Of a DNA stretch of 64,000 bases, positions 10,804-62,129 are shown one piece after another. Every line of letters begins with the position of its first letter. The first letter of the stretch is position 1. Under the pieces are notes generated by a model. The model was given only the letters and a program-made list of their open reading frames with translations, ran no database searches and was not told the origin of the DNA. A program made the translations under genes and the position numbers. Source of the stretch: a virus (lineage: Duplodnaviria > Heunggongvirae > Uroviricota > Caudoviricetes). The stretch lies in IMG/VR virus record IMGVR_UViG_3300010882_000010, one strand, 5' to 3'.

Positions 10804-11102
10804 AAAATAGTAGCACATGTGTTTAAAAAGAAAAGCGAAAGTAACTTTCACAATAGAAGAGGTTGAAATAATGACTCAACTTTTAATAGACAAGTACAAT
10901 GATCTTCAAGCCAATATTAACAGAAATGATAGTTACAAAGGTAATTACATGCACAAACAGGCAGAAGTAATGAAAATTATTAAGAAATTGTAATGGGTAA
11001 AGAAAGAGAAAAGTTAGTTTTACATGATACTTTTTGGATGCCATTAGCATGTGGTGCTATTTTTGGTTTGCTTTTAGTTTTAATGATAGTTTTGATGCAG
11101 TC

Positions 11103-29101: not shown

Positions 29102-29317
29102 ATGAAACAAGAAAACATGCAATTTTCTGGAATTGTAGTCGAGTCTTTACCGAATGCAATGTTTAGAGTAGAATTAGACAATGGACACAAGGTCCTTGCA
29201 ACACTCTCAGGAAAGATGAGAGTACACTATATCAAAGTATTAGAAGGAGACCGAGTAGATTTAGAAGTTTCTCCTTATGATTTAAACAAAGGTCGAATCA
29301 CTAAAAGATTAAAATAA
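29102..29317 (+). CDS. infA: Translation initiation factor IF-1 homologue (S1-like OB fold).
   Basis: [61 protein letters not shown] aligns along its full length with bacterial IF-1 (...GTV.E.LPN.MFRVEL.NGH.V.AHISGKMR...I..GD.V..E..PYDL.KGRI). Confidence 0.8.
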
Positions 29318-35524: not shown

Positions 35525-35600
35525 TTGTTAGTAACTATTTTTAATAATTGGAGATTTGTGTCAAAATTTTCAGTATTTTTGTGTTTAAAATTAAAATAGA
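35523..35600 (+). promoter_or_regulatory. Promoter element copy D.
   Basis: aattgttagtaactattttt ... cagtatttttg (35574-35581); ATG at 35601. Confidence 0.55.
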
Positions 35601-36041
35601 ATGAAGAGTTTAATCGTTTTAAGAGGATTACCTGGTGCAGGAAAATCAACTTTAGCAGAAGTACTTTCAGCTGGAATACATCCAATTGCTTGTGCTGATG
35701 ATTATTTTATGGTAGATGGGGAGTACAAGTTTGATGCAAGAAAATTGGGTGAAGCACATGCTAATTGTAGAAATAGAGTAGAAGTTGCAATGCAAACATC
35801 ATGGCTTAATTCTTTGAAGTTTGATTACAATATCAATGAAGATCCATATCGTACAATAATTGTAGCCAATACTAACACAGTTTCAAGTGAATGGTATGAT
35901 TTCTATTCAGAACTTGCAGAAAAGTATGGTTATCAAATCCATTCTGTAATAGTAGAGAATAGACATGGAAACAAAAGTATTCACAATGTGCCAGAGGAAA
36001 CTATGGAAAGAATGAGAAACAGATTTGAAGTAAAACTATAG
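35601..36041 (+). CDS. P-loop NTPase kinase (polynucleotide kinase / nucleoside-monophosphate kinase-like).
   Basis: Walker A LRGLPGAGKSTLAEVL at the N terminus and small size, comparable to the T4 Pnk kinase domain. Sits downstream of promoter element copy D. Confidence 0.6.
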   Translation: MKSLIVLRGLPGAGKSTLAEVLSAGIHPIACADDYFMVDGEYKFDARKLGEAHANCRNRVEVAMQTSWLNSLKFDYNINEDPYRTIIVANTNTVSSEWYDFYSELAEKYGYQIHSVIVENRHGNKSIHNVPEETMERMRNRFEVKL

Positions 36042-36046
36042 TAGAA

Positions 36047-36667
36047 ATGAAAGTTTGGTTGCAAGTAACTTCAGGAAGAGGACCAGTAGAATGTTGTAGA
36101 GTTGTTGTAGAAGTATGTTCAGAGATAATTTGTGAAGGAAGTGAACAAGGATTAGAGGTTGAATTTTTAGCGGGTGAATCAGGTCCGGTAAAGAGAACTT
36201 GGTATTCTTCAATAATAACAGTAGAAGGAGATGAAAAACAGGTAGAAGATTTTGTTAAATCATGGGAGGGTACAGTACTTTGGATAACAAACAGTCCATA
36301 CCGATTACATCACAAAAGAAAGAATTGGTTTGTTGGTGTGAAAAGATTGGAAGTTGCAAAGGTTCAAGATTTTAAGGAAAATGAAGTTGAGTTTACTACA
36401 ACAAGATCTTCAGGACCTGGTGGACAACATGTGAACAAAACAGAATCTTGTGTAGTTGCAATACACTTACCAACAGGAATTAAAGTTACATCAAGCAATA
36501 GAAGTTCGCAATTTCAAAACAAGCAGATTGCAATAGAATTACTTAAAGCTAAATTAGCAACTTTAGAAGCAGAAAAAGAACTTAAAGTAGAACAAACTAA
36601 TTGGCAAAATCATAATGAATTGGAAAGAGGAAATCCAGTTAGAACTTTTAAAAGAAGATTAACATGA
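36047..36667 (+). CDS. prfH: PrfH-like peptidyl-tRNA hydrolase / release factor H (a GGQ-domain protein lacking RF domain 1).
   Basis: TTRSSGPGGQHVNKTESCVVAIHLPTGIKVTSSNRSSQFQNKQIAIELLKAKL is the class-I release-factor GGQ domain. At 206 aa with the motifs GPVECC, SPYRLHHKRKNWFVG and C-terminal ERGNPVRTF, the layout fits PrfH, not RF1/RF2 or ArfB. Confidence 0.8.
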   Translation: MKVWLQVTSGRGPVECCRVVVEVCSEIICEGSEQGLEVEFLAGESGPVKRTWYSSIITVEGDEKQVEDFVKSWEGTVLWITNSPYRLHHKRKNWFVGVKRLEVAKVQDFKENEVEFTTTRSSGPGGQHVNKTESCVVAIHLPTGIKVTSSNRSSQFQNKQIAIELLKAKLATLEAEKELKVEQTNWQNHNELERGNPVRTFKRRLT

Positions 36668-37218
36668 GTAAGAGAACAATGGAAGAGTACTTAAGACCGA
36701 GTTTAAAATCAAACAAACCGATTTGTTTTTGTGATATGGATGGATGTGTTGCAGATTATGATAAAAGAGTACAAGAAAATAGGGTAGCAGGTATTAAGGA
36801 ACATGAATTAACAAGAGCAAAAAATGCTTACAAAGATTTGGAGTTAATTCCTGGTGCTTATGATGCTGTACAATGGTTATCAGAACATTTTGATTTCTAT
36901 CTTGCAAGTACCTCTCCATGGAGTTGTCCAGATGCTTGGATGCAAAAGAGAATCTGGGCAGAAGAATATCTTGGAAAAGTTGTTAAAAAGCGTTTGATTT
37001 TAACACACAATAAAGGACTTTTAAAAGGAGATCTTTTGATAGATGATAGAATTGCAAATGGTGTAGCCGATTTTGAGGGTACTTTCATTCATTTTGGTTC
37101 TCTTCAATTTCCGGATTGGGATACAACTATCGAATGGTTGAAAAATGGAGATGGTCAGAAGATTTTTGAAAGGTTTGAAGTCAGACAAAGAATCTTAAAA
37201 TCAAAATGTTACCGATAA
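36664..37218 (+). CDS. HAD-family 5'(3')-deoxyribonucleotidase-like phosphatase (NT5C family).
   Basis: ICFCDMDGCVADYDKR matches the NT5C motif I (DMDGVLAD); a downstream ...LLIDD motif is also present. Confidence 0.6.
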   Translation: MSKRTMEEYLRPSLKSNKPICFCDMDGCVADYDKRVQENRVAGIKEHELTRAKNAYKDLELIPGAYDAVQWLSEHFDFYLASTSPWSCPDAWMQKRIWAEEYLGKVVKKRLILTHNKGLLKGDLLIDDRIANGVADFEGTFIHFGSLQFPDWDTTIEWLKNGDGQKIFERFEVRQRILKSKCYR

Positions 37219-37233
37219 TTAAAACACAAAATA

Positions 37234-37461
37234 ATGAGTAAGTACGAAACACTTTCAAGATTAGATGAACTTAGAGAAGAAGAAAAATGGCCAGTGGTAG
37301 AAATGGAATTATGGGATGGTCAAGTTTTGCATGGTCTTTACAGAGGTATGGATGGAGATGATACTTTAATGTTGAAAAACATGGAAAGAACATCCACACT
37401 TGGTTGGCATGTTGAAACTATTAAGAACATTACACTTTTAAAAGAAGATCAAAATGACTAA
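37234..37461 (+). CDS. Hypothetical protein.
   Basis: 75-aa ORF. Confidence 0.4.
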   Translation: MSKYETLSRLDELREEEKWPVVEMELWDGQVLHGLYRGMDGDDTLMLKNMERTSTLGWHVETIKNITLLKEDQND

Positions 37462-37699
37462 AGAAGAACAAGTTATTATTAAAACATCTTCATACACCGA
37501 GACTTTTCCGGAATCTTCTTGTAAAGTTAAAGTTGCTATTAGAGCAGTTGGATGGGATAAAAATGATTGTTTCAAAACTTACGTCTATGAAGATGCCATC
37601 TATGATGGTGGATTTGTTACTATTCCAGAAAAGAAACAGTCCTACCTTGCTTTTAATTTTCTCTTTCACAAGTTGAAACGTGAAGATTTAAAGAACTAA
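37454..37699 (+). CDS. Hypothetical protein.
   Basis: 81-aa ORF. Confidence 0.4.
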   Translation: MTKEEQVIIKTSSYTETFPESSCKVKVAIRAVGWDKNDCFKTYVYEDAIYDGGFVTIPEKKQSYLAFNFLFHKLKREDLKN

Positions 37700-37714
37700 A
37701 AAAGACTAAAAACA

Positions 37715-38473
37715 ATGAGTTTGATTAATGTTCTTAAACGAGCAAAACAATACAGTAATGTTATTGCTGTTGGTGATATTCATGGTCAGACATCTGAGTT
37801 AGGTTACAGGATTAAAAAGCGTTACAATATTGAGAATAGTGTTATTATTCTTTGCGGTGATATTGGAGTTGGTTTTCACAAGTTTAACTACCATAAAGAT
37901 GACTTTGCACGGTTAGATACTATTGCTAAATCTAGCAAAAATTTGATTATTGTAGTACGTGGAAATCATGATGATCCTACTTATTTTGATGGAAGTTTTA
38001 ACATGTTTACCAATATTGCTTTTGTACCAGATTACACAGTAGTAGAGACAAAAAACCAAAGAATACTTTGTGTAGGTGGTGGTGTTTCTATTGATAGGAC
38101 AGATCGAAAATTGGGAAGTTCTTATTGGGGTGATGCGGAGTTACCTGTTTATGATGAAGAGTTGTTAAAATCAGCAGGAGAAATTGATGTAATCTGTGCA
38201 CATGGAGCACCATCTTGGTGTGAACCGAGTAATAAAGATGGAATTGACTATTGGATTTCAAAAGATTCAGAATTAAGCAAGGACATCGACTATGAACGAA
38301 AAGTGATGGATCAGATTTTTAATTACTTAGAGAAAAACACAAAGAGTTTGAATTTTTGGGTTTATGGTCATTATCACATGTCAAAATCTCAAAATTATGA
38401 TGGGATGCGATATCGTGCTATTGATTGTATGGAATTTTTTCCAATTCCAGACCTTGATAGAAAATCGGAATAG
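37715..38473 (+). CDS. Calcineurin-like metallophosphoesterase (Ser/Thr phosphatase / ApaH / RNA-repair phosphoesterase family).
   Basis: IAVGDIHGQ (GDxHG), CGDIGVG (GDxxDRG-like) and VRGNHDD (GNHE/D). Confidence 0.7.
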   Translation: MSLINVLKRAKQYSNVIAVGDIHGQTSELGYRIKKRYNIENSVIILCGDIGVGFHKFNYHKDDFARLDTIAKSSKNLIIVVRGNHDDPTYFDGSFNMFTNIAFVPDYTVVETKNQRILCVGGGVSIDRTDRKLGSSYWGDAELPVYDEELLKSAGEIDVICAHGAPSWCEPSNKDGIDYWISKDSELSKDIDYERKVMDQIFNYLEKNTKSLNFWVYGHYHMSKSQNYDGMRYRAIDCMEFFPIPDLDRKSE

Positions 38474-38484
38474 ATAGTAAAAGG
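38467..38484 (+). promoter_or_regulatory. Copy 4 of the motif (GGAATAGATAGTAAAAGG).
   Basis: One mismatch (A to G); 11 nt upstream of the ATG at 38496. Confidence 0.5.
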
Positions 38485-38495
38485 AATAGTAAGAA

Positions 38496-39491
38496 ATGAC
38501 AGGTCATACAGTTTACCTTAAAGATACAGAAGAAAATCAATCACCTCTTTATACTAAAGAATTTTTTGATTATTCTAAAAACACAAGCGCACAATTTGAA
38601 GCATACATCAGTGGTCAGAATTATTGGAATAAGCCGTTAAGTAGACTTGATATTCATGGAGTTTACTATATTGGAAGTGGTTCACAATATGAAGGACAAT
38701 CTGGGGGTATTTCAGGAATACTTTTAGTGCATCATGAACCCGGGACTGTAAAAGAAGAGTTTGCACCATTAGATATTAAGTTAGACCAATTATTGCAAAC
38801 TGAAATTACTAACTTAGGACAAATTTTAAATGTTAGATTAACTCAAGATTCAGAATGCCCGCCTGTTGATATGAGAGAATTTGGTATTGAAAATTCAGCA
38901 GGAGAAATAGCATCACTTTACATCAACGAGAAAAAACAATTCAGATTTTTTAGTCATCATATTGGAAGACCAATTTTGGATATGGAAGGAGAGCGAGAAG
39001 AAAACAAATGGTTTACAATTACAAGACTTAATCAAAGTGCAACATCTGGATTTGATAGTCGTGAATTAAAATCATCCATGAATCCGATAGCAGATAATGA
39101 TACTAAAAAATATCGGTTGATTTTTTGGGATTTGACAAAGCGTTGTATGCTTTATGTTTACAAAGCACCGGCAAATCTTGGAGATGTAGGCGAGTTCTAT
39201 GAAAATTTGGAATTGATAGCAAAAACTGTAACTAACAAAGGATTTGATTTGGCGGCTGATGTTACTTTGGGATTTGGTACTTACTTTATCAGATTGAGAA
39301 TAATTGAAGATGGTTGTACTAAATTTAATCTTGATTTAAGAGAAATTGGTACTAATAGTGGAGAAATCGGATTTGAGTTTGAAAATCCATTTAGCAATAC
39401 AATAATAATGCCAATTACAGGAGATGGTCCTCCTACAGGAGAAACAGGAACAACAGGTTCTACCGGAAGTACCGGGGTTACAACAAGATAA
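38496..39491 (+). CDS. Probable structural (tail or fibre) protein with a C-terminal collagen-like G-X-T repeat tail.
   Basis: The C terminus is GDGPPTGETGTTGSTGSTGVTT. An immediately upstream GGAATAGATAGTAAAAG copy lies at 38467-38484. Confidence 0.5.
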   Translation: MTGHTVYLKDTEENQSPLYTKEFFDYSKNTSAQFEAYISGQNYWNKPLSRLDIHGVYYIGSGSQYEGQSGGISGILLVHHEPGTVKEEFAPLDIKLDQLLQTEITNLGQILNVRLTQDSECPPVDMREFGIENSAGEIASLYINEKKQFRFFSHHIGRPILDMEGEREENKWFTITRLNQSATSGFDSRELKSSMNPIADNDTKKYRLIFWDLTKRCMLYVYKAPANLGDVGEFYENLELIAKTVTNKGFDLAADVTLGFGTYFIRLRIIEDGCTKFNLDLREIGTNSGEIGFEFENPFSNTIIMPITGDGPPTGETGTTGSTGSTGVTTR

Positions 39492-39527
39492 AACAAAAAA
39501 TTTTGCTTTTTTAGTTACTATCGAGAA

Positions 39528-39615
39528 ATTGTTAGTAACTTTTTTCTTTTAAAGACGTTTCGTATCAGTATTTTTAGTATTTTTACAGTATCAAAACAAT
39601 CAAAATTCAATCAAA
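39528..39615 (+). promoter_or_regulatory. Promoter element copy E (near-duplicate of copy A).
   Basis: aattgttagtaacttttttcttttaaagacgtttcgtatcagtatttttagtatttttacagtatcaaaacaatcaaaat. Confidence 0.55.
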
Positions 39616-39972
39616 ATGTCACAAGAAAAATTAACAAAAGAACACATCCAACTGAAGCTGGAAACTGACATCCGTTGGTTAGAAAGAGCAGTTGTAGCAA
39701 TTTGGGAATTCCAAACTGAACAAGAAAAATCTTACCAATCTACTTTAGAGTTTAATGGTGTAGGTTTTAATGGTTCAGATGCTCCATTTTTAACGAGTAT
39801 TGCCAATCATCTTAACAAAGGAAGACATCTTACTGAAAAGCAAATCCCTTACGTTCGTAAGAAAATGAAAAAGTATGCTGGTCAACTTTTGAGAATTGCA
39901 AATGCTAAAGCAGTAGCTAAAGCACAGAGAGAAGAAAATCAATCAAATTATCAACTTAAAATCAATTACTAA
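39616..39972 (+). CDS. Hypothetical protein.
   Basis: 118-aa ORF downstream of promoter element copy E. Confidence 0.45.
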   Translation: MSQEKLTKEHIQLKLETDIRWLERAVVAIWEFQTEQEKSYQSTLEFNGVGFNGSDAPFLTSIANHLNKGRHLTEKQIPYVRKKMKKYAGQLLRIANAKAVAKAQREENQSNYQLKINY

Positions 39973-39973
39973 G

Positions 39974-40165
39974 ATGAACACAATTAGAATTTCCATGTCA
40001 ATAATGTCCTATCTTTCAGATGCACAAGCAATGATAGAATTAGGTATGCTTAAAGAAGCAAATGCCAGAATTAACTGTGCAAAATCAATTTTGTTAGATT
40101 TTCCGAATACTAATGAGGAAGTAGACAAAAGAGCAATTTACGAATCAATTAAAGAATGGTTGTAA
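39974..40165 (+). CDS. Hypothetical protein.
   Basis: 63-aa ORF. Confidence 0.4.
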   Translation: MNTIRISMSIMSYLSDAQAMIELGMLKEANARINCAKSILLDFPNTNEEVDKRAIYESIKEWL

Positions 40166-41430
40166 TGGAAGGAATAGTAATAATTAACAATGCACAGACA
40201 CAAGCAGGTAAGATTTTATTGGAACTTGAATGTGAACGAATAGTAAACCAAGAACCATTCATTACAAATCTTATTGCAATAGGTGGAAAGCCATATTATG
40301 TTGGCGGTTTTGTAAGGGACTATTTAATGGGTAGACCTAATAAAGATATTGACATCATAGTTGAAGGGCTTAATATTGAACAGATTAGAAAATCTTTGAC
40401 TTACTTTGGTAAAGTAGATGTTGTTGGAGAAAGTTTTGCGGTTGTAAAGTTTAAATCTTCAGATACCGGAATTGAGTATGATATTGCAGCACCAAGAATC
40501 GACAAGAAAGTTGCAGAAGGTCACAAAGGGTTTGAAGTTGTTTCAGGAAGTGAAGTAACTTTAGAAGAGGATCTTTTGCGTAGAGATTTCAGAATTAATA
40601 GTATTGCAGTTGACATCCAAACAGGGAAAATAGTGGATCCATTTAATGGAATTGCTGATATTGAAAAACGTAGAATTACAATGACAAATCCTCAAGCTTT
40701 TCTTGATGATCCATTGAGAATTTTAAGGGCTGTTCAATTTTCTATTCGGTTTGATTTTTCAATAACAGATGGAACTTTCCAATTGATGAGAGAACATATG
40801 AAGTTGATTAAAGAAATTCCTGGCGAGAGAATACATGAAGAGTTTGTTAAAATTGCTATGAAAAATGGCAGTGCTATTAAGACTTACCAATTATTAAGAC
40901 AGTTGAATTTTCATCAATACTTTAATAGTAGTATGCAATGGGTAATTAATTCAGTTCAAGATCTTAAGATTGGAAGATTAAAGACAGGAATTTACGAGTA
41001 CAATACAATGGGTGAGTTTTTTACTATCATTTGCGGTTGTCATTCTAAAGCACCGGAATTTTATCAAGAAGTTTTGAAGGGTGAAACAAGCACATATAAA
41101 CAGATGAAAGCCATTCTATTTTACAAGAAAAACAGGTTTGAACATCCGGGAATTTTGGCAAGTAAAATGGTGAAGATTACGAATGATAGTTTTAGTTTTA
41201 CTAAAAATGTTGTGCCAGATGATGAAGTAAGAAGGTACTTGCATGATATGAGAGATGAGATATTGCCGGCATACGTAAAGGATTTGAAAATTAATGGTAA
41301 TGATGCAATAGAAGCAGGATATGAAGGTAAAAGAATTGGAGATATCTTGCAACGACTTTACGAAGGGGTAATAATGGGATGGTTTCCAAATGAACGTGAA
41401 AAATTGTTAGAACTTTTAAAATTAAAGTAA
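40156..41430 (+). CDS. tRNA nucleotidyltransferase (CCA-adding enzyme / poly(A) polymerase family, class II).
   Basis: Head-domain signature GGKPYYVGGFVRDYLMGRPNKDIDIIVEG (GGxVRD ... DxD). Confidence 0.75.
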   Translation: MVVMEGIVIINNAQTQAGKILLELECERIVNQEPFITNLIAIGGKPYYVGGFVRDYLMGRPNKDIDIIVEGLNIEQIRKSLTYFGKVDVVGESFAVVKFKSSDTGIEYDIAAPRIDKKVAEGHKGFEVVSGSEVTLEEDLLRRDFRINSIAVDIQTGKIVDPFNGIADIEKRRITMTNPQAFLDDPLRILRAVQFSIRFDFSITDGTFQLMREHMKLIKEIPGERIHEEFVKIAMKNGSAIKTYQLLRQLNFHQYFNSSMQWVINSVQDLKIGRLKTGIYEYNTMGEFFTIICGCHSKAPEFYQEVLKGETSTYKQMKAILFYKKNRFEHPGILASKMVKITNDSFSFTKNVVPDDEVRRYLHDMRDEILPAYVKDLKINGNDAIEAGYEGKRIGDILQRLYEGVIMGWFPNEREKLLELLKLK

Positions 41431-46408: not shown

Positions 46409-47116
46409 ATGGCAACGAAAAAAACAAAAGAAGCTAAAGAACAACGAAACACTAAAGATATTCAATTGCTTGCAACTGAATTTATCAATACTAAATCAGA
46501 AGAAGCATACACTCAAATTGTGAAGAGATTAACACCGGGTTTGCACAAGCATATCATGGAAATTGAACCTAACCAAGAAAAAAGAAAAGAAATCATCAAT
46601 GATGTTTTTGTTAAAGTTTGGACAAAAATCCATCAATATAATCCAGAATTTGGTGCTTTTTCAACTTGGATCTACAAAATAGCATACAATGACGTTTTAC
46701 TTTCAAAAAGAAACAGTTTTAGAACAACTTCTATTGATGGTGGAAATGAAGACACAACAAACGTAACTTTATCTCCTCTTAACTCTATTCAATATTCCTA
46801 CAAAATGAATGAGGAGTTTGATACTTACAAAGATAACAATGTTATTGATGAATTGTATGGAATGGTTAAAACAATGATTTTGAATTTTCCAGAATCAGAG
46901 AAGTACAAAAATTGGAAAACAGCTTTCTTGCTTAAAGATATTGAGGGATACCAATTTAATGAAGTTGCTGAATTAATGAATGAAAATGAAAACACAGTAA
47001 AAGGATGGGTTTGTAAAGCTCGTAGACACTTAGCAAAAATGACCAATAAAGAAGATCAAAATTTGGTTGAAGATTACTTTGCTTATCGCTACGAGTATGA
47101 AAACAATCCGTATTAA
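46409..47116 (+). CDS. Sigma-70-family (ECF-like) RNA polymerase sigma factor.
   Basis: Region-2-like FSTWIYKIAYNDVL and a region-4 helix-turn-helix YQFNEVAELMNENENTVKGWVCKARRHLAK. Confidence 0.75.
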   Translation: MATKKTKEAKEQRNTKDIQLLATEFINTKSEEAYTQIVKRLTPGLHKHIMEIEPNQEKRKEIINDVFVKVWTKIHQYNPEFGAFSTWIYKIAYNDVLLSKRNSFRTTSIDGGNEDTTNVTLSPLNSIQYSYKMNEEFDTYKDNNVIDELYGMVKTMILNFPESEKYKNWKTAFLLKDIEGYQFNEVAELMNENENTVKGWVCKARRHLAKMTNKEDQNLVEDYFAYRYEYENNPY

Positions 47117-54866: not shown

Positions 54867-54941
54867 CCGTTTTCGTGGTGTAATGGCGTGCATAACTCCC
54901 TGTCACGGAGTAGGTCGGAGTTCGAACCTCCCGGGGACGGC
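54867..54941 (+). tRNA. Putative tRNA-Asp (anticodon GTC); weak acceptor and D stems.
   Basis: Anticodon arm actcc-CTGTCAC-ggagt and T arm ggag-ttcgaac-ctcc. The acceptor ccgtttt/gggacgg needs 3 G-U pairs. Confidence 0.4.
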
Positions 54942-54965
54942 AAAACAAAAAGAGCAAAAAACTAA

Positions 54966-55030
54966 AATTGTTAGTAACTTTTTCCAACTATTAGAAGTTG
55001 GTATTGAAATTTTTAGTATTTTTGTACTGT
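54966..55030 (+). promoter_or_regulatory. Promoter element copy G, upstream of the main tRNA array.
   Basis: aattgttagtaactttttcc ... tagtatttttgtac (55017-55024). Confidence 0.5.
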
Positions 55031-55145
55031 TCTTTGACATCTTGAATGAAAAAGTAAAGTAAAAAAGCAGATTCACTTTACTACCATGAACGAGGGATCC
55101 TATGGGTAAACTCTTAAAATGGAATTGTAATGGATTTGCTATTAT

Positions 55146-55218
55146 GCTCCTGTCATCTAAGGGTTTAGGATAAGTGATTTTCGATCACTAAATCGGGGTT
55201 CGAATCCCCGTGGGAGTA
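55146..55218 (+). tRNA. tRNA-Glu (anticodon TTC).
   Basis: Acceptor gctcctg/tgggagt, D stem atct/ggat, anticodon arm agtga-TTTTCGA-tcact, T arm cgggg-ttcgaat-ccccg. No encoded CCA. Confidence 0.7.
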
Positions 55219-55624
55219 CAAAGTTGTTAAAAGACGTTTTAATAACCTGGAGAGTTCGAAATCTCCGATCGAGCATAGTTTAGAGGGAACAGCCTGTCTG
55301 TGTAGGTCTAATTGACCGATAAGACGGGCGGGTGTAAGGTTCGAATCCTTATGGTTTGGCAGAATTTTGATTTGAAATTATCATTAGAGGTGTTAGTCCA
55401 TGTAGATTAACACCTCAGTGGTTAGGAAATCAAAGAAAAAACAACAACAGAATACTAAACATTGCGATGAGGGTCTGCAATATGGTACTAGTAAAACATC
55501 TCCCAAGGTGAATTAGAGGCGGGTTCCGCGGCATGTTAAACCTTAAAACATTGAAGTTTGGTAATTCTGTTTTTTTAATTAGGTACAATAGTTAAAATGA
55601 AAAGGCAATAAGCCCAATAAAAAT

Positions 55625-55644
55625 AGAGATACATAGTAAAAAGA
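55625..55644 (+). promoter_or_regulatory. Copy 8 of the motif, degenerate (GAGATACATAGTAAAAAG).
   Basis: Upstream of the ATG at 55653 (Vsr-like endonuclease). Confidence 0.35.
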
Positions 55645-55652
55645 AGATTACT

Positions 55653-56471
55653 ATGCCTCGAAAAATTATTGATACTTTAAGAAATTGTGAAAATTGTGAA
55701 ATTGAATTTTTTGGACATACAAGGTTTTGTTCATTAAGTTGTAAAGGAAAGTATCTTGCCAAACGTTCATTAGAAGTACGAAAAGAATTGGGTGTATCTA
55801 TCGGAGCTAAAGTAGGTAGAAAAAACAAGAATGCACTTGGAAATTGGAAATGTGAAATTTGTGAAGAAGTTTTTAGAACAAGAAGAGAATTACAAGATCA
55901 TAAAAAAGTTCATGGAACAAGCATAGAACGAAACAAAGAAAAATTAAAAAAGGAGTACACTTGTCAATATTGTGGTAGATTGAAAATAACTACAAAAGAA
56001 GGTGCAACTAATCACGAAAGAGTTTGTAAAGAAAATCCTAATAGACAAAAAACATCACAAGAAGGAAAATCATTAACAGTAGAACACAAACAAAATGTTT
56101 CTAGAGGAATGAAAAAAGCACACGAAGAAGGACGAGCTTGGAATATTGGAAAAAGTAGATGGAATAATGAACCTTCTTATCCTGAAAAATGGTTTATGCA
56201 AGTAATAGAAAATGAGTTTAATGATAAATTGTATGAAAGAGAGTATTCTTGTAGTATTTACTCAATTGATTTTGCATGGGTGCATAAAATGAAAGGTATT
56301 GAAATTGATGGTTCACAACATCAAAGATTTAAAGAATATCAAGAAAGAGATGAGAGAAAAATGAAAAAGTGTACTGAATTTGGATGGAAAATTTTAAGAA
56401 TATCGTGGAAAGAATGTTTTAATAATCCAAAACAATGGATTAAAATAGCAAAAGAATTCATTGAAAATTAA
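55653..56471 (+). CDS. Homing endonuclease-like protein: C2H2/zinc-ribbon motifs, a NUMOD3-like segment, and a C-terminal DUF559/Vsr-like PD-(D/E)xK domain.
   Basis: CENCEIEF..CSLSC; CEICEEVFRTRRELQDHKKVH; NUMOD3-like LTVEHKQNVSRGMKKAHEEGR; C-terminal YSIDFAWVHKMKGIEIDGSQHQ...ERDERKMKKCTEFGWKILRISWKE. Inserted inside the tRNA array. Confidence 0.65.
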   Translation: MPRKIIDTLRNCENCEIEFFGHTRFCSLSCKGKYLAKRSLEVRKELGVSIGAKVGRKNKNALGNWKCEICEEVFRTRRELQDHKKVHGTSIERNKEKLKKEYTCQYCGRLKITTKEGATNHERVCKENPNRQKTSQEGKSLTVEHKQNVSRGMKKAHEEGRAWNIGKSRWNNEPSYPEKWFMQVIENEFNDKLYEREYSCSIYSIDFAWVHKMKGIEIDGSQHQRFKEYQERDERKMKKCTEFGWKILRISWKECFNNPKQWIKIAKEFIEN

Positions 56472-56472
56472 A

Positions 56473-56544
56473 GGGCTGGTAGCTCCAATGTAGAGCGGAA
56501 TCCTGTTAAGATTATGGTTGGTGGTTCAAGTCCACCCCAGCCCG
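56473..56544 (+). tRNA. tRNA-Asn (anticodon GTT).
   Basis: Acceptor gggctgg/ccagccc (perfect), D arm gctc-caatgta-gagc, anticodon arm gaatc-CTGTTAA-gatta, T arm ggtgg-ttcaagt-ccacc. Starts 2 nt after the upstream stop codon. Confidence 0.85.
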
Positions 56545-56745
56545 CAAAAAAATCAACAAACTGGATCCGACGTAATACAGAAGAAAAAACGGGGAAACAG
56601 AATTGCAATTAGATTGCTAATTTTGCTAATCATTTAGCTCATCCACAGTAGTCAGTTTGTTTTTAAAGAAATAGTGCGGGATAGACTGGAGGTGGTTCCA
56701 GCTCGGTCTCAATAAAGTATCCAACTTACTGTTAATTAGTTGGTT

Positions 56746-56791
56746 ACCGGAAAATAGTTGGAATATTAGGGTTCGAATCCTTATTCCGGTA
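56746..56791 (+). ncRNA. tRNA-like minihelix (acceptor stem plus T arm only).
   Basis: accggaa-aatagttggaatat-taggg/ttcgaat/cctta-ttccggt-a, with a perfect 7-bp acceptor-like stem. Confidence 0.4.
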
Positions 56792-56843
56792 CTAAGCCGA
56801 ACTACGTGGGTTCGACTCCCACTCCCGCTACAAAGTTTGATAC

Positions 56844-56897
56844 TTTTGATTTTTTGGGAAAAATCCGGATAGGTGAGTTCGAATCTCACATCAAAAG
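56844..56897 (+). ncRNA. tRNA-like minihelix (acceptor stem plus T arm only).
   Basis: ttttgat-tttttgggaaaaatccggatag-gtgag/ttcgaat/ctcac-atcaaaa-g, with a perfect 7-bp stem. Confidence 0.4.
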
Positions 56898-57119
56898 TAA
56901 AGAACCTAAAAGATAGGTTGTTAAGTGACTGAGCCTGAACGTATTCACTCTATGTACTCGGCTTTAACATGAAAGTAAAGGAAATTCCTGGGTGAACTAG
57001 CAGGTGGTAAAACTAGAACGAAGTAAGATGCTCTGTTTGAAGAATGAAACATCATCTGGCAACGGGGTTGTGTAGCCAAAGTTGACAACCAAGATCAACA
57101 CTTACTATCTTTTTCTCAT

Positions 57120-57192
57120 AGTGCTGAGGTCAAACGGTTAAGATGTCGCCCTGTCACGGCGTACGGAGCGGGTTCAACTCCCGTCAGCACTG
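57120..57192 (+). tRNA. tRNA-Asp (anticodon GTC).
   Basis: Acceptor agtgctg/cagcact (perfect), anticodon arm cgcc-CTGTCAC-ggcg, T arm gcggg-ttcaact-cccgt. Confidence 0.7.
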
Positions 57193-57600
57193 CATAATTA
57201 TCTAAAAAGATGCGGATTGAGTACTTTTGGTGAAACATGTGGAGAAACCAAAAGGATTAGCAAATTCAAGAAGGTGTTTTTAGGATTATGGCTTATTTGG
57301 ACTGCTATTCAAGTAGGTTGCAATAATTTCTAACTATTGGTGTAATTAGGTAACACGCTCTTCGAGGAGGAGGGAATTGAGAGTTCGAGTCTTTCATAGT
57401 AAGAAAGGTTTGCGTAGGTATTGCATAGCATTAAGGTTTAATGTGCTGGGAGGAAATCCCGGAGAATGGGTTCGAATCTCAACAATATCACAAAATGGCG
57501 AAGTACGCCCGTAATTGGTACACGGGGTCAATCTGAAAATTAAAAGATTGAATACTGCAAAGATTTCATTGTAAGTTCGATTCTTTCCTTCGCCGCAAAT

Positions 57601-57730
57601 TAGGGTGTAGCTCAGTGGTTAGAGCGCGTAAAATTCAACAACTAAAATCTGATAGTCAAAGGTTTTATGCAGCAAAAAATTAGAAATTGCATTCAGGAGC
57701 ACGATGTCGGTGGTTCGAATCCATCCACCC
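57601..57730 (+). tRNA. tRNA-like gene with a ~55-60 nt insertion in the anticodon region (candidate intron-containing or otherwise atypical tRNA).
   Basis: Canonical 5' half tagggtg-ta-gctc-agtggtta-gagc-g and 3' end ggtgg-ttcgaat-ccatc-cacccta (perfect 7-bp acceptor), but about 83 nt lie between the D stem and the T stem where about 22 are expected. Confidence 0.4.
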
Positions 57731-57817
57731 TAACTTTTTAAGTGCTTGTAGCAAAACGGCTTCGCCGCTGGCTTTTAACCAGCAGAAGGAGGTTCGACTC
57801 CTCCCAGGCACACTTAG

Positions 57818-57890
57818 GCTCTTATGGCGCAATTGGTAGCGCTGCTGGTTCTTACCCAGTAGGTTGGTGGTTCGAATCCATCTAGGAGTA
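57818..57890 (+). tRNA. tRNA-Lys (anticodon CTT).
   Basis: Acceptor gctctta/taggagt, D arm gcgc-aattggta-gcgc, anticodon arm gctgg-TTCTTAC-ccagt, T arm ggtgg-ttcgaat-ccatc. Confidence 0.7.
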
Positions 57891-58080
57891 CACAAAGGTT
57901 TCTTACAGCAACTTTTAGGACTCAACTTTTAATTGAACATTCTGAATGAAACCTGAAATTTTACATCCACAGTTTAATGGTTAAATACCTGAGATGCATG
58001 TCATGAAACTTGGGAGTTTGTCAGTTCGAGTCTGACTGGATGTGCTAAAAATCTTAACAAAATGGAAAACTTTAAGTAAT

Positions 58081-58156
58081 GGCCGAGTAGCTGCAATTGG
58101 TACAGCGCGGGTGTGAAGTACCCGGACTCTTGTAGGTTCGACTCCTACCTTGGCCA
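58081..58156 (+). tRNA. tRNA-Phe (anticodon GAA).
   Basis: Acceptor ggccgag/cttggcc, D arm gctg-caattggta-cagc, anticodon arm cgggt-GTGAAGT-acccg, T arm gtagg-ttcgact-cctac. Confidence 0.8.
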
Positions 58157-58165
58157 CAAAATCAT

Positions 58166-58241
58166 TGACCTCTAGCGAAATTGGTTTAATGCAGCGCGCT
58201 CATAACGCGAAGATGTACAGGTTCGAGTCCTGTGGGGTCAA
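58166..58241 (+). tRNA. tRNA with anticodon CAT (Met, initiator, or a lysidine-Ile tRNA).
   Basis: Acceptor tgacctc/ggggtca, anticodon arm gcgc-CTCATAA-gcgc, T arm acagg-ttcgagt-cctgt. Confidence 0.65.
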
Positions 58242-58247
58242 CAATAT

Positions 58248-58318
58248 TGGAGATTGTTGTAACAGTAGCGATTTGGTTTTACATACCAACAGAGGCGGGG
58301 CAGCACCGTCATCTCCAA
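58248..58318 (+). tRNA. tRNA-Val (anticodon TAC).
   Basis: Acceptor tggagat/atctcca (perfect), anticodon arm ttggt-TTTACAT-accaa, and a non-canonical T loop (ggcgg-ggcagca-ccgtc). Confidence 0.6.
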
Positions 58319-58327
58319 CAAACTTAT

Positions 58328-58399
58328 TGCCTGCTAGCTCAGAAGTAGAGCAATCGGCTGATATCCGATAGGTGCGAGGAGCATTACCTCGGCAGGCAA
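58328..58399 (+). tRNA. tRNA-Ile (anticodon GAT).
   Basis: Acceptor tgcctgc/gcaggca (perfect), D arm gctc-agaagta-gagc, anticodon arm atcgg-CTGATAT-ccgat, T arm cgagg-agcatta-cctcg (non-canonical loop). Confidence 0.7.
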
Positions 58400-58508
58400 C
58401 TAATCATAAAACACTTATGGATGCAATTCTTATCTATTGTTATCGTGGTAAGTTGCAGAATTTTTAAGTCGACTATGGAATTTTAAGTGCCCTTTGATGA
58501 TTCTTTAT

Positions 58509-58578
58509 TGCAATGTAGATAATGATAGTCATACGGTTTCATGAACCGGAAGTCTTGGTTTGAATCCAAGCATTGCAA
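58509..58578 (+). tRNA. Second tRNA with anticodon CAT (Met, fMet or Ile2); degenerate D arm.
   Basis: Acceptor tgcaatg/cattgca (perfect), anticodon arm cggt-TTCATGA-accg, T arm cttgg-tttgaat-ccaag. Confidence 0.5.
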
Positions 58579-58585
58579 CAATTAA

Positions 58586-58658
58586 GCCTCTGTAGTTCAA
58601 TTGGATAGAACAAGAGATTTCTAATCTCTAAATCGGGAATCATGCTCCTGTGGAGGTA
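58586..58658 (+). tRNA. tRNA-Arg (anticodon TCT).
   Basis: Acceptor gcctctg/tggaggt (3 G-U pairs), D arm gttc-aattggata-gaac, anticodon arm agaga-TTTCTAA-tctct, T arm cggga-atcatgc-tcctg. Confidence 0.65.
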
Positions 58659-58686
58659 CTAAATTTTAGTTTTCAAAAAATTACTT

Positions 58687-62112: not shown

Positions 62113-62129
62113 AAAGACTAAGAATACTA

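What the first reader, a model, noticed from the sequence alone, without database searches (positions are those of the whole stretch)
35601..41430. PrfH-like release factor inside an RNA-repair and translation-rescue gene neighbourhood with no RtcB partner.
ORF 36047-36667 has a class-I release-factor GGQ domain (RSSGPGGQHVNKTESCV...HLPTGI). Its size (~206 aa) and additional motifs (GPVECC, SPYRLHHKRKNWFVG, C-terminal ERGNPVRTF) match PrfH, not RF1/RF2 or ArfB. In bacteria prfH is characteristically paired with rtcB2 as a repair system for ribosomes whose 16S rRNA has been cut. No RtcB-like gene is present here.

The neighbours are instead:
- a P-loop kinase (35601),
- an NT5C-type HAD phosphatase (36664),
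- a calcineurin-like phosphoesterase (37715),
- a CCA-adding nucleotidyltransferase (40156).

Nearby are also a HIT hydrolase (44772), an IF-1 homologue (29102) and the tRNA array. Together this looks like a phage module for surviving host attacks on the translation apparatus, such as anticodon nucleases, rRNA nucleases or 3'-CCA trimming. Its composition differs from the described PrfH-RtcB or T4 Pnk-Rnl systems.
Basis: partly seen in the sequence, partly recalled or inferred. Interest (0 to 1): 0.75.

Follow-up and report, generated by a model that had tools for sequence, protein, structure and literature searches.

The report
Phage PrfH ribosome-rescue gene without RtcB
A very large phage of Bacteroidota carries a genuine PrfH gene (a factor that frees ribosomes whose 16S rRNA has been cut) with no RtcB ligase nearby, placed beside an RNA 5'-kinase in a genome that also has two ATP-dependent RNA ligases, which suggests an undescribed phage route for rescuing and repairing ribosomes.

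Summary
ORF 36047-36667 is a true short-form PrfH: NCBIfam TIGR03072 scores 243 bits against a cutoff of 167, and it aligns end to end with both solved PrfH structures. It keeps the GGQ motif and every residue that E. coli PrfH uses to hold the cut A1493 3'-phosphate.

The window is part of a phage genome of at least 219 kb with Bacteroidota affinities. No RtcB occurs in the 88.7 kb I could read.

The interpretation needs revision:
- **Transcription unit.** PrfH is the second gene of a 3.9-kb block bounded by promoter-like elements. The block starts with a Pnk-type kinase and also holds a HAD phosphatase and a metallophosphoesterase. In other phages, orthologues of this kinase sit in phosphoesterase-Rnl1-kinase cassettes.
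- **Ligases.** The genome is not ligase-free. Just past the window lie an NgrRnl-like nick-sealing RNA ligase (32 kb downstream) and an Rnl1 gene split by an intein (36-39 kb downstream).
- **CCA enzyme.** It is explained by 11 phage tRNA genes that lack an encoded CCA.
- **NT5C protein.** It looks like nucleotide metabolism.

Best reading: PrfH rescue is coupled to ATP-dependent heal-and-seal repair, or to host RtcB2. This is a new variant of a known system, supported by genomic evidence only.

The parts
35525..35580 (+). Promoter-like bipartite element (TTGTTAGTAACT, then about 35 nt, then TATTTTTG) in the 76-nt gap before the kinase gene. It marks the start of the PrfH transcription unit.
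   Evidence: The 11-mer occurs 15 times in the window against 2.0 expected, and none of 100 shuffles reached 15. Eight aligned copies keep fixed spacing to a TATTTTT(G/A) box. The full pattern occurs at 9422, 26963, 28692, 35525, 39529, 54744 and 54968. Function as a promoter is inferred.
35601..36041 (+). Small P-loop kinase (146 aa), Pnk-type. It corresponds to the kinase half only, with no fused phosphatase domain.
   Evidence: Pfam AAA_33 E 7.5e-7. phrog_2071 E 5.8e-33; phrog_505 'polynucleotide kinase' E 3.7e-5 over profile positions 1-140 of 295. It is 43-46% identical to kinases that lie directly beside an Rnl1 RNA ligase, with a metallophosphoesterase adjacent or a few genes upstream, in Pseudomonas phages Pyxpy02 and PAK_P1 and Escherichia phage Schickermooser. 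P-loop GLPGAGKS and DDY are present. No PDB match by sequence.
36047..36667 (+). PrfH, short form (206 aa): a peptidyl-tRNA hydrolase specific for ribosomes cut in the decoding centre.
   Evidence: TIGR03072 243 bits against a cutoff of 167. PDB CgPrfH E 4.5e-51 and EcPrfH E 1.2e-42. EcPrfH contact residues R83/H85/H86/R88/K89/N90/R189/Q122 correspond to R86/H88/H89/R91/K92/N93/R194/Q127, all conserved (residue roles from PMC9304027). No C-terminal tail. GC3 is 16%, against 21% (sd 4) for window ORFs.
36664..37218 (+). NT5C-type HAD phosphatase (184 aa). Its start overlaps the PrfH stop by 4 nt.
   Evidence: Pfam NT5C E 8.6e-13. DMDG motif present. Closest phage relatives are annotated 5'(3')-deoxyribonucleotidase in KVP40-like Vibrio phages. 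A role in RNA end healing is not supported by homology.
37234..37699 (+). Two small ORFs of unknown function (75 aa at 37234-37461 and 81 aa at 37454-37699) inside the unit.
   Evidence: No Pfam match. Gaps of 15 nt or less, or overlaps, with neighbouring genes.
37715..38473 (+). Calcineurin-like metallophosphoesterase (252 aa), a candidate 2',3'-cyclic-phosphate or 3'-phosphate esterase.
   Evidence: Pfam Metallophos E 8e-13. phrog_1649 E 7.6e-20. Motifs GDIHG, GD, GNHD and GHYH present. Relatives occur in Lak megaphages and other huge phages. It is not the same family as the roughly 185-aa phosphoesterase of the Rnl1 cassettes. Substrate unknown.
38496..39491 (+). Orphan ORF (331 aa), last gene of the unit. 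Function unknown, with no sign of being a ligase.
   Evidence: No Pfam or PHROG match. It finds only itself among 5.8 billion proteins and three distant relatives among 1.84 billion representatives. The AlphaFold model is unusable, pLDDT 34. No KxDG motif.
39529..39584 (+). Second copy of the promoter-like element, marking the start of the next unit.
40156..41430 (+). Class II tRNA nucleotidyltransferase (probable CCA-adding enzyme), in the next transcription unit.
   Evidence: PolyA_pol E 3.7e-25 plus PolyA_pol_RNAbd. phrog_2244 E 3.5e-61. Best NCBIfam match is the CCA enzyme PRK13299 at 152 bits, below its cutoff of 290.
54868..58659 (+). Array of 11 tRNA genes, none with an encoded 3' CCA. 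tRNA-Asp and tRNA-Glu are preceded by the same promoter-like element.
   Evidence: ARAGORN. 3' flanks read directly from the sequence. Motif copies at 54744 and 54968.
29102..29317 (+). IF-1 homologue, in a unit that starts with the same promoter-like element (28692).
   Evidence: Pfam eIF-1a E 1.2e-24. Motif at 28692.

Best explanation
The window is part of a jumbo phage genome (at least 219 kb) with Bacteroidota affinities. ORF 36047-36667 encodes a working short-form PrfH.

**Proposed mechanism**
1. A host or competitor rRNase cuts 16S rRNA between A1493 and G1494. This is the colicin E3 / CdiA-CT type of damage, and translating ribosomes stall.
2. The phage PrfH enters the empty A site, grips the 3'-phosphorylated A1493 with its conserved pocket, and hydrolyses the peptidyl-tRNA with its GGQ loop. 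The ribosome can then come apart.
3. Sealing is done by a heal-and-seal route encoded by the phage, not by an adjacent RtcB:
   - the Pnk-type kinase, transcribed just ahead of PrfH, phosphorylates the 5'-OH end;
   - a phosphoesterase from the same unit removes the 3'-phosphate or cyclic phosphate;
   - an ATP-dependent ligase closes the nick. The candidates are the NgrRnl-like nick-sealing ligase 32 kb downstream and the Rnl1 gene 36-39 kb downstream.

**Shown:** family membership, conservation of the residues, gene order, the shared promoter-like element, the presence of the ligases, and the absence of RtcB in 88.7 kb.

**Inferred:** every substrate assignment, the cooperation between these genes, and the existence of an rRNase attack during infection.
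For: **PrfH identity and intact recognition and catalytic residues:**. Residue roles come from PMC9304027.

**One tightly packed unit, 35601-39491:** gaps are 22 nt or less, and copies of an enriched bipartite promoter-like element lie at 35525 and 39529.

**The kinase is orthologous to kinases of phosphoesterase-Rnl1-kinase cassettes in three phage groups:**

**ATP-dependent ligases on the same contig.** L009 overlaps the window by 12,520 nt with one mismatch.
- The 469-aa ligase matches phrog_968 at E 7e-34.
- Its motifs I, III, IV and V are conserved.
- The AlphaFold model has pLDDT 83.8, and its top 13 Foldseek hits are all Naegleria nick-sealing RNA ligase, at E about 1e-12.
- The same family lies two genes downstream of a polynucleotide kinase in Gordonia phage Trax.
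- Two copies of the promoter-like element precede the gene.
- A fractured Rnl1 lies at L197:13953-16546.

**No RtcB from window-equivalent -8,409 to +80,323:**

**Bacteroidales prfH operons can contain an ATP-dependent route as well.** B. fragilis has a PF09414 ligase and an HD/AAA_33 kinase, and a Bacteroidales MAG has the PF09414 ligase. Linkage of PrfH to an ATP-dependent route therefore has a cellular precedent.

**PrfH alone does not restore translation:** PMC13166195. Some sealing enzyme is needed.

**The gene's composition has ameliorated to the phage:**
Against: - No experiment exists; everything about substrates is inferred.
- The ligases are 32-39 kb away, not in the PrfH unit.
- The promoter-like element is also used by unrelated genes (the ExoX-like unit, the sigma factor), so sharing it may only reflect a timing class.
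- In this genome almost all genes are tightly packed on one strand, so adjacency is weak evidence of functional coupling.
- The window's metallophosphoesterase is not the family found in Rnl1 cassettes.
- The NT5C protein looks like a deoxyribonucleotidase.
- The kinase-phosphoesterase-ligase set is fully explained by classic T4-style tRNA repair without involving rRNA.
- At least 70 kb of the 160-kb contig, and about 130 kb of the genome, remain unread and could hold an RtcB.
- A relative that shares the promoter system does carry RtcB.
- No anti-phage system that cuts the decoding centre is known to me.
Confidence: 0.45

Rival explanations
1. The rescue function is the same, but sealing is by RtcB, either the host's RtcB2 or a phage RtcB in the unread part of the genome. 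The phage supplies only extra rescue factor. The kinase, phosphoesterases and ATP-dependent ligases do T4-style tRNA repair or nucleotide metabolism, and merely share a promoter class with PrfH.
For: - The five Bacteroidales or closest-homologue prfH loci examined all have rtcB next to or near prfH, so a likely host would bring its own RtcB2.
- PrfH accelerates RtcB2 repair of translating ribosomes (PMC13166195).
- A relative phage with the same promoter element has an RtcB.
- 14 of 19 PrfH-bearing IMG/VR contigs keep RtcB directly upstream.
- The NT5C relatives are deoxyribonucleotidases.
Against: - A kinase and 3'-phosphatase made from the same unit would convert the ends to 5'-P and 3'-OH, which RtcB cannot join.
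- No RtcB occurs in 88.7 kb, whereas two ATP-dependent ligases do.
- The host is not identified, so its RtcB2 is assumed.
Confidence: 0.3
2. The phage PrfH has drifted to a different job, such as general rescue of stalled or non-stop ribosomes during phage-induced mRNA decay, or recognition of another lesion. It would then not be tied to rRNA repair.
For: - It sits on a long branch: 53% median identity to Bacteroidales PrfH, against 64% among them.
- V137 replaces an Arg or Lys that is present in 13 of the 14 aligned sequences.
- It has been decoupled from RtcB.
- A Flavobacteriia PrfH subfamily is known to rescue intact non-stop ribosomes (PMC12829566).
Against: - That dual activity depends on a basic C-terminal tail (proteins of 225-250 aa), which this 206-aa protein lacks.
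- All residues of the A1493-phosphate pocket, and the contacts to helix 18, are conserved.
- The EcPrfH authors find it hard to see how the short form could serve other stalled ribosomes (PMC9304027).
Confidence: 0.12
3. The gene is a passenger picked up from a Bacteroidota host with no adaptive role, or the contig is not a phage at all.
For: - PrfH is rare in phages: there is no PHROG family for it, and only two short unannotated fragments among 50,697 GenBank phage records hold a full-length match.
- No capsid, portal or terminase gene was seen in the 88.7 kb read.
Against: - The ORF is intact with every invariant family residue.
- Its composition is fully ameliorated (GC3 16%, against 27-54% in the five Bacteroidales or closest-homologue prfH genes examined), which argues for long residence under selection.
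- The protein is identical on five contigs.
- Phage character is supported by several features:
  - one-strand gene packing;
  - a tRNA array;
  - a phage RNase H, and RNase H homologues in Cellulophaga phages;
  - a tail-fibre-like 965-aa protein and homing endonucleases;
  - a promoter element shared with an IMG/VR viral contig.
Confidence: 0.06

Closest known systems
E. coli RtcB2-PrfH ribosome rescue-and-repair module (Tian et al. 2022, PMC9304027; PMC13166195)
   Same: Same protein family and size class. The GGQ motif and all residues that recognise the 3'-phosphorylated A1493 and helix 18 are conserved. The predicted first step (peptide release on decoding-centre-cleaved ribosomes) is the same.
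   Different: There is no RtcB next to it, or anywhere within 88.7 kb. It is encoded by a phage and co-transcribed with a kinase and phosphoesterases. The sealing enzyme, if phage-encoded, would be ATP-dependent and would need end healing first.
Bacteroidales prfH operons seen here (B. fragilis: rtcB-prfH-PF09414 ligase-HD/AAA_33 kinase; a Bacteroidales MAG: rtcB ... prfH-PF09414 ligase)
   Same: These are the closest PrfH sequences (50-56% identity). In them PrfH is already linked to an ATP-dependent RNA ligase, and in B. fragilis also to a P-loop kinase.
   Different: RtcB is absent in the phage. The phage kinase is not detectably related to the bacterial HD-kinase. The phage ligases belong to other families and lie 32-39 kb away.
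T4 Pnk-Rnl1 tRNA repair, and the phosphoesterase-Rnl1-kinase cassettes of Pakpunavirus, Pyxpy-like and Phapecoctavirus phages
   Same: The window's kinase is orthologous (43-46% identity) to the cassette kinases. An Rnl1-type ligase and phosphoesterases exist in the same genome. The heal-and-seal logic is the same.
   Different: The kinase has no fused HAD phosphatase domain. In this phage the gene beside the kinase is PrfH, not Rnl1. Rnl1 is distant and interrupted by a split intein. None of those described systems includes a release-factor homologue.
CgPrfH / PrfH-CT subfamily of Flavobacteriia (PMC12829566)
   Same: It is the best-scoring solved structure (E 4.5e-51) and is of Bacteroidota origin.
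   Different: The phage protein lacks the basic C-terminal tail that allows rescue of intact non-stop ribosomes.
Naegleria gruberi / Deinococcus radiodurans nick-sealing RNA ligases (NgrRnl, DraRnl; Rnl5 type). This comparison concerns the ligase just outside the window.
   Same: It has an N-terminal OB-like domain followed by a nucleotidyltransferase domain. The top 13 fold matches are NgrRnl, and motifs I, III, IV and V are conserved.
   Different: Sequence identity is only about 12%. It is 130 residues longer. It scores 17 bits against the TIGR02306 cutoff of 151.

Membership tests
PrfH (peptide chain release factor H, TIGR03072 / IPR017509) | Scores above the curated cutoff of the family model over its full length | tested here: met
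   243.3 bits against a cutoff of 166.65; protein 3-203 against model 1-197 of 200.
PrfH (peptide chain release factor H, TIGR03072 / IPR017509) | About 200 aa, with a GGQ domain and a recognition domain, and no N-terminal RF domain 1 | tested here: met
   206 aa. The RF-1 domain covers 108-195. It aligns end to end with EcPrfH (204 aa).
PrfH (peptide chain release factor H, TIGR03072 / IPR017509) | Catalytic GGQ and the residues that bind A1493-3'-phosphate, helix 18 and C1054 (EcPrfH R83, H85, H86, R88, K89, N90, R189, Q122) | tested here: met
   All are conserved, as R86, H88, H89, R91, K92, N93, R194 and Q127. Residue roles come from PMC9304027.
PrfH (peptide chain release factor H, TIGR03072 / IPR017509) | Operon partner RtcB (RtcB2 type, TIGR03073) next to prfH | tested here: not met
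   No RtcB by Pfam or six-frame tblastn from window-equivalent -8,409 to +80,323. The pairing is typical of the family but is not part of the protein family's definition. Five of 19 viral PrfH loci also lack it.
PrfH (peptide chain release factor H, TIGR03072 / IPR017509) | Peptidyl-tRNA hydrolysis only on ribosomes cut between A1493 and G1494 | not testable with these tools
   This needs peptide-release assays.
PrfH-CT subfamily (dual-activity PrfH) | Conserved basic C-terminal tail; total length 225-250 aa | tested here: not met
   The protein ends 4 residues after ERGNPVRTFK. CgPrfH continues for about 25 more residues.
ArfB | Scores above the family cutoff; a GGQ domain plus a C-terminal tail and no recognition domain | tested here: not met
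   NF006718 scores 37 bits against a cutoff of 100, and only the GGQ region matches.
T4 Pnk-type polynucleotide 5'-kinase | P-loop kinase fold related to Pnk kinase domains | tested here: inconclusive
   phrog_505 'polynucleotide kinase' matches at E 3.7e-5 over profile positions 1-140 of 295. The strongest match is phrog_2071, 'ATPase'. AAA_33 scores just above its cutoff. There is no PDB match by sequence.
T4 Pnk-type polynucleotide 5'-kinase | Genomic linkage to an RNA ligase | tested here: met
   This holds for the orthologues: they lie directly beside Rnl1 in three phage groups. In this phage the ligases are 32-39 kb away.
T4 Pnk-type polynucleotide 5'-kinase | Fused C-terminal HAD 3'-phosphatase domain | tested here: not met
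   The protein is 146 aa, the kinase half only.
NgrRnl/DraRnl-type (Rnl5) nick-sealing RNA ligase (gene at L009:17434-18843, outside the window) | N-terminal OB-like domain plus a nucleotidyltransferase domain with motifs I, III, IV and V | tested here: met
   Foldseek: the top 13 hits are NgrRnl, at E about 1e-12 and target TM 0.62-0.69, using a model with pLDDT 83.8. K209xHGTS, E295, E428G..R433 and K444xK446 are conserved in a three-sequence alignment; K209, E295, E428, G429, K444 and K446 are invariant across 32 homologues.
NgrRnl/DraRnl-type (Rnl5) nick-sealing RNA ligase (gene at L009:17434-18843, outside the window) | Scores above the cutoff of TIGR02306 (RNA ligase, DRB0094 family) | tested here: not met
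   17.2 bits against a cutoff of 151, N-terminal region only. It should be treated as a fold-level relative, not a family member.
CCA-adding tRNA nucleotidyltransferase | Class II head domain and RNA-binding domain; score above an equivalog cutoff | tested here: inconclusive
   The domains are present. The best equivalog, PRK13299, scores 152 bits against a cutoff of 290. CCA-adding, A-adding and poly(A) activity cannot be told apart here.

The most novel reading that the evidence does not exclude
A phage-encoded, RtcB-independent ribosome repair pathway. In this reading, PrfH frees ribosomes cut in the decoding centre. A Pnk-type kinase and a phosphoesterase from the same operon then heal the ends. 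An NgrRnl-like nick-sealing ligase reseals 16S rRNA. This would imply that Bacteroidota hosts use a decoding-centre rRNase as an anti-phage (abortive-infection) weapon, which has not been described.
Probability: 0.2. Interest if true: 0.75.

Novelty: new variant of a known kind. Interest (0 to 1): 0.5.

Why it matters
[quoted passage not shown] It has been studied only as the bacterial partner of RtcB2, in defence against colicin E3 and CdiA toxins.

I found no paper that describes a phage-encoded PrfH, and PHROGs has no family for it. A phage that has kept a fully conserved PrfH under selection implies that decoding-centre cleavage happens during infection. That makes a concrete hypothesis testable: rRNA cleavage at A1493 may be an anti-phage defence.

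The gene's uncoupling from RtcB, and its placement next to a Pnk-type kinase in a genome with two ATP-dependent ligases, also raises a second question: can cut rRNA be repaired by the heal-and-seal route? The PF09414 ligase in two of the Bacteroidales prfH operons examined, with an HD-kinase in one of them, hints that it can, but this has not been examined.

If instead the phage simply relies on host RtcB2, the finding is a modest addition to the list of phage translation-rescue genes.

Tried and rejected
- **Megablast against GenBank phages.** A search with the 5.8-kb region found no match.
- **Single-protein scan of IMG/VR.** This found nothing. The alignment-based scan was needed.
- **PDB sequence searches.** Searches with the kinase, the metallophosphoesterase and the ligase found nothing.
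- **Cryptic ligase in ORF 38496-39491.** I rejected this idea for lack of any support. The ORF has no ligase motifs and is an orphan family. The single-sequence AlphaFold model was unusable, with pLDDT 34.
- **First ligase probes gave a false negative.** My first probes were tblastn with RtcB, PF09414 and three Rnl1 proteins. They covered only the window, L003 and L009, and they missed the NgrRnl-like ligase in L009 because it belongs to another family. For a while I therefore wrongly held that the region had no ligase. A PHROG scan of the flanking ORFs corrected this.
- **P0002 corrected.** I first read the contig of the closest homologue, P0002, as lacking RtcB. Its truncated first ORF is RtcB-like.
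- **Kinase derived from the Bacteroides operon kinase.** I rejected this because there is no detectable similarity.
- **Concatenating small ORFs with Gly-Ser linkers.** This produced spurious Serglycin hits and may have cost some sensitivity; for example, the CYTH domain recorded was not recovered.
- **Reaching more of the genome.**
  - The ThyA look-up failed.
  - No supplements are held for the Jug-phage paper.
  - The link to Jug phages (shared IF-1A and RNase H core genes, about 30% GC) remains an untested lead.
- **Release-factor-like gene in the huge phage LR756502.1.** Although it lies near a homologue of the metallophosphoesterase, it is a truncated RF1/RF2 type with an in-frame stop, not a PrfH.

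Full report
**1.

ORF 36047-36667 (206 aa) is PrfH:
- It scores 243.3 bits on NCBIfam TIGR03072 (release_prfH, cutoff 166.65) across the whole model. The RF2, RF1 and ArfB models fall far below their cutoffs.
- Pfam sees the RF-1 GGQ domain at 108-195.
- The two best matches among solved structures are the only PrfH structures: C. gingivalis PrfH (9mor_A, E 4.5e-51) and E. coli PrfH (7sa4_8, E 1.2e-42). Both align end to end.

The neighbours carry the stated domains:
- AAA_33 kinase, NT5C-type HAD, Metallophos, PolyA_pol-head nucleotidyltransferase and HIT.
- An IF-1 homologue.
- 11 tRNA genes.

**2. What kind of PrfH it is**

At 206 aa it is the short, EcPrfH-like form. It lacks the basic C-terminal tail (proteins of 225-250 aa) that lets the Flavobacteriia PrfH-CT subfamily also rescue intact non-stop ribosomes (PMC12829566).

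I mapped the residues that EcPrfH uses to recognise the damaged ribosome (PMC9304027) onto an alignment. R83, H86 and R88 bind the 3'-phosphate of A1493. R189 stacks on the base. K89 and N90 contact helix 18, and H85 contacts C1054. Q122 is catalytic. All are conserved in the phage protein, as R86, H89, R91, R194, K92, N93, H88 and Q127. The one oddity is V137, where 13 of 14 aligned sequences have Arg or Lys.

The closest homologues (50-57% identity) are Bacteroidales PrfH proteins. On a neighbour-joining tree the phage protein is a long-branch sister to that whole clade. Its median identity to the clade is 53%, against 64% within the clade, and it is separate from the other viral PrfH lineages.

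Its composition matches the phage and not the bacterial genes. GC3 is 16%, against 21% (sd 4) for window ORFs and 27-54% for the five Bacteroidales or closest-homologue prfH genes examined. This indicates an old acquisition kept under selection, not a recent passenger.

**3. The genome**

The window matches ENA contig ERZ27257304:k141_515881 (160,151 bp). Proteins from the unit also occur on a 219-kb contig and on contigs in the 0.2-1 Mb class.

Several features support a phage:
- Genes are packed on one strand.
- There is a tRNA array, two TnpB genes and homing endonucleases.
- There is a phage-type RNase H whose best annotated relatives are in Cellulophaga phages.
- A tail-fibre-like 965-aa protein lies just upstream.

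I take it to be a jumbo phage of a Bacteroidota host. No capsid, portal or terminase gene lay in the part I could read.

**4. Transcription units**

A bipartite element (AATTGTTAGTAACTTTTT, then at fixed spacing about 30 nt downstream (A/C)(G/T)TATTTTT(G/A), which resembles the Bacteroidota -7 box) is strongly enriched. The 11-mer occurs 15 times against 2.0 expected, and none of 100 shuffles reached 15.

It lies in intergenic gaps before 9497, 27052, 28779 (the unit with IF-1), 35601, 39616, 46409 (a sigma factor), tRNA-Asp and tRNA-Glu.

Between the copies at 35525 and 39529, seven ORFs have gaps of 22 nt or less: kinase, PrfH, NT5C-type HAD (4-nt overlap with the PrfH stop), two small ORFs, the metallophosphoesterase, and an orphan 331-aa ORF. 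The CCA-type enzyme and the HIT protein belong to the next unit. The element's function as a promoter is inferred.

**5. The neighbours, one by one**

- **Kinase.** It matches phrog_2071 (E 5.8e-33) and, weakly, the kinase half of the Pnk family phrog_505. Homologues occur in 621 phage records. In Pseudomonas phages Pyxpy02 and PAK_P1 and Escherichia phage Schickermooser, the orthologue (43-46% identity) lies immediately after an Rnl1-type RNA ligase, with a metallophosphoesterase adjacent to the ligase or a few genes upstream of it. That is good contextual evidence for a polynucleotide 5'-kinase. In this phage PrfH, not Rnl1, sits next to it.
- **Metallophosphoesterase.** It has the full set of catalytic motifs. 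It belongs to a different family from the cassette phosphoesterase. Its relatives are in Lak megaphages and other huge phages.
- **NT5C protein.** It resembles the 5'(3')-deoxyribonucleotidases of KVP40-like phages, so nucleotide metabolism is the simpler reading.
- **ORF 38496-39491.** It is an orphan with no ligase motif and no usable structure model.
- **CCA-type enzyme.** None of the 11 tRNA genes encodes CCA, so this enzyme has an ordinary role in maturing phage tRNAs.

**6. RtcB and other ligases**

No RtcB was found by Pfam or by six-frame tblastn. The search covered the window, 8.4 kb upstream and 16.3 kb downstream, 88.7 kb in all.

The genome is not ligase-free, however. L009 overlaps the window by 12,520 nt with one mismatch, so it is the same genome.

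*NgrRnl-like ligase.* L009 carries a 469-aa ORF at window-equivalent 68,914-70,323, which is 32.2 kb downstream of PrfH.
- It matches phrog_968 'RNA ligase' over its full length (E 7e-34).
- Pfam gives weak PHA02142 OB-fold and PF09414 signals. Many homologues carry those domains.
- Motifs I (K209xHGTS), III (E295), IV (E428G..R433) and V (K444xK446) are conserved.
- An AlphaFold model (pLDDT 83.8) has the Naegleria gruberi nick-sealing RNA ligase as its top 13 fold matches (E about 1e-12), followed by T4 Rnl2.
- It does not reach the DraRnl family cutoff (17 bits against 151).
- The same family is annotated as RNA ligase in Gordonia phage Trax, two genes downstream of a polynucleotide kinase.
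- Two copies of the promoter-like element precede it.

*Fractured Rnl1.* Further on, at window-equivalent 72,866-75,459, lies an Rnl1-type gene broken into three ORFs.
- The first ORF is an N-extein that ends at motif I (DKVDG), followed by CLDKET..., the start of an intein.
- The second is a free-standing DUF7487 endonuclease gene.
- The third begins with an intein C-piece (..LLVHN) and continues as SCGISYY..., the rest of the ligase.

**7. Context elsewhere**

In Bacteroidales, prfH lies with rtcB in every locus I examined:
- B. fragilis: rtcB-prfH-PF09414 ligase-HD/AAA_33 kinase.
- A MAG: rtcB, an acetyltransferase, prfH, then a PF09414 ligase.
- Two metagenomic contigs: rtcB close upstream of prfH.
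- The closest homologue, P0002, has a truncated RtcB-like ORF upstream.

In IMG/VR, 19 viral contigs carry PrfH. Fourteen have RtcB directly upstream and five do not. One of those five has a Tpt1/KptA RNA 2'-phosphotransferase two genes upstream, and another has a metallophosphoesterase nearby. None has the window's kinase.

A 146-kb IMG/VR contig with at least 20 copies of the same promoter element carries an RtcB and a PF09414 ligase. No PrfH was detected in it.

**8. Mechanism**

By homology, the phage PrfH should release the nascent peptide from ribosomes cut between A1493 and G1494. Published work shows that PrfH alone does not restore translation; it speeds up ligation of translating ribosomes (PMC13166195). 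A sealing enzyme is therefore required.

Two candidate routes remain:

- **(a) Phage heal-and-seal.** The kinase from the PrfH unit, a phosphoesterase and an ATP-dependent ligase would do the repair. A nick-sealing, NgrRnl-like enzyme would suit a nick within helix 44. This last point is my inference from what I know of that enzyme family.
- **(b) RtcB.** This would be the host's RtcB2 or an unseen phage RtcB.

I favour (a) slightly. A kinase and phosphatase expressed together with PrfH would make the ends unusable by RtcB. The phage demonstrably has two ATP-dependent ligases and no RtcB in 88.7 kb. The margin is small.

**9. Novelty and score**

I found no paper that describes a phage PrfH. 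PHROGs has no family for it. Among GenBank phage records, only two short unannotated fragments hold a full-length match.

The protein itself is a clear member of a known family. The new elements are its phage setting, the loss of the RtcB pairing, and the link to a Pnk-type kinase in a genome equipped for ATP-dependent RNA sealing. I rate it a new variant of a known kind, with interest 0.5. All functional statements rest on sequence and context only.

Noticed in passing
L009:17434-18843 (window-equivalent 68,914-70,323; same contig, outside the window): NgrRnl-like ATP-dependent RNA ligase (469 aa). It has an N-terminal OB-like domain and a nucleotidyltransferase domain with conserved motifs. 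Two copies of the promoter-like element precede it.
   Followed up: yes
L197:13953-16546 (window-equivalent 72,866-75,459): Rnl1-type RNA ligase gene broken at catalytic motif I by a split intein, with a free-standing DUF7487 endonuclease gene between the two halves (a 'fractured gene' arrangement). Whether it is trans-spliced into an active ligase is unknown.
   Followed up: partly
window 9422, 26963, 28692, 35525, 39529, 46330, 54744, 54968; window-equivalent 68463 and 68730: Conserved bipartite promoter-like element (AATTGTTAGTAACTTTTT, about 30 nt, then (A/C)(G/T)TATTTTT(G/A)) in front of units that encode IF-1, kinase-PrfH, the CCA enzyme, a sigma factor, two tRNAs and the RNA ligase. The upstream box may be the site of a phage regulator or of the phage sigma factor at 46409-47116.
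   Followed up: partly
L038, L043, L047, L050, L059-L061, L064, L066 (IMGVR_UViG_3300010167_000014, 146 kb): A viral contig with at least 20 copies of the same promoter element but almost no protein similarity to the window. It encodes a compact 359-aa RtcB (L059:934-2013) and a PF09414 ligase (L043:1973-2659, minus strand) that is 42% identical to the ligase of the B. fragilis prfH operon. No PrfH was detected.
   Followed up: partly
window 54868-58659: None of the 11 tRNA genes encodes a 3' CCA. A DUF559/MTES_1575 endonuclease gene (55653-56471) sits inside the array.
   Followed up: partly
window 36455-36457 (PrfH residue V137): Val replaces an Arg or Lys that is present in 13 of the 14 aligned PrfH sequences (EcPrfH R132), in the SAVRxxH segment of the GGQ domain. 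The consequence is unknown.
   Followed up: no
L019:753-1319 (IMGVR_UViG_3300001598_000045): A Tpt1/KptA RNA 2'-phosphotransferase lies two genes upstream of a viral PrfH that has no RtcB. This is another hint that phage PrfH genes associate with repair chemistry other than RtcB.
   Followed up: no
L005:6647-8469 (B. fragilis CP117955.1) and L034:8630-9439: Bacteroidales prfH operons carry a PF09414 ATP-dependent RNA ligase directly after prfH, and in B. fragilis also an HD + AAA_33 kinase, in addition to rtcB. I did not find this discussed in the PrfH papers I read.
   Followed up: partly
window 5946-7301 and 60168-61406: Two TnpB-like genes (OrfB_IS605 plus the Cas12f1-like TNB domain) in a phage genome.
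   Followed up: no
window 62076-63740 and 8306-9400: The thymidylate synthase ORF is unusually long (554 aa as listed, called as 536 aa on the contig), and the Pfam match is stretched over residues 20-326, which suggests an insertion. The DHFR ORF (364 aa) has a roughly 200-aa C-terminal extension with no domain match.
   Followed up: no
window 58707-59207: An HD-like ORF directly after the tRNA array. It is 32% identical (E 1e-8) to the 'metal-dependent phosphohydrolase' that lies near the phosphoesterase-Rnl1-kinase cassette of Pseudomonas phage PAK_P1.
   Followed up: partly
window 5392-5883, 11034-11507, 31176-32852, 46409-47116: Other unusual cargo: a CYTH domain protein (from the precomputed Pfam annotation), a SET-domain protein, a flotillin/SPFH protein (more Band_7 genes lie downstream), and a sigma-70-family factor.
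   Followed up: no
L193:7337-7756 and 14540-15196 (LR756502.1, 642-kb uncultured phage): A truncated RF1/RF2-type release-factor gene with an in-frame stop (possibly recoded) lies about 7 kb from a homologue of the window's metallophosphoesterase. It is not a PrfH.
   Followed up: partly
window 38496-39491: An orphan 331-aa ORF that closes the PrfH unit. It has only three distant relatives among 1.84 billion representative proteins, and it ends in a Gly/Thr-rich tail.
   Followed up: yes
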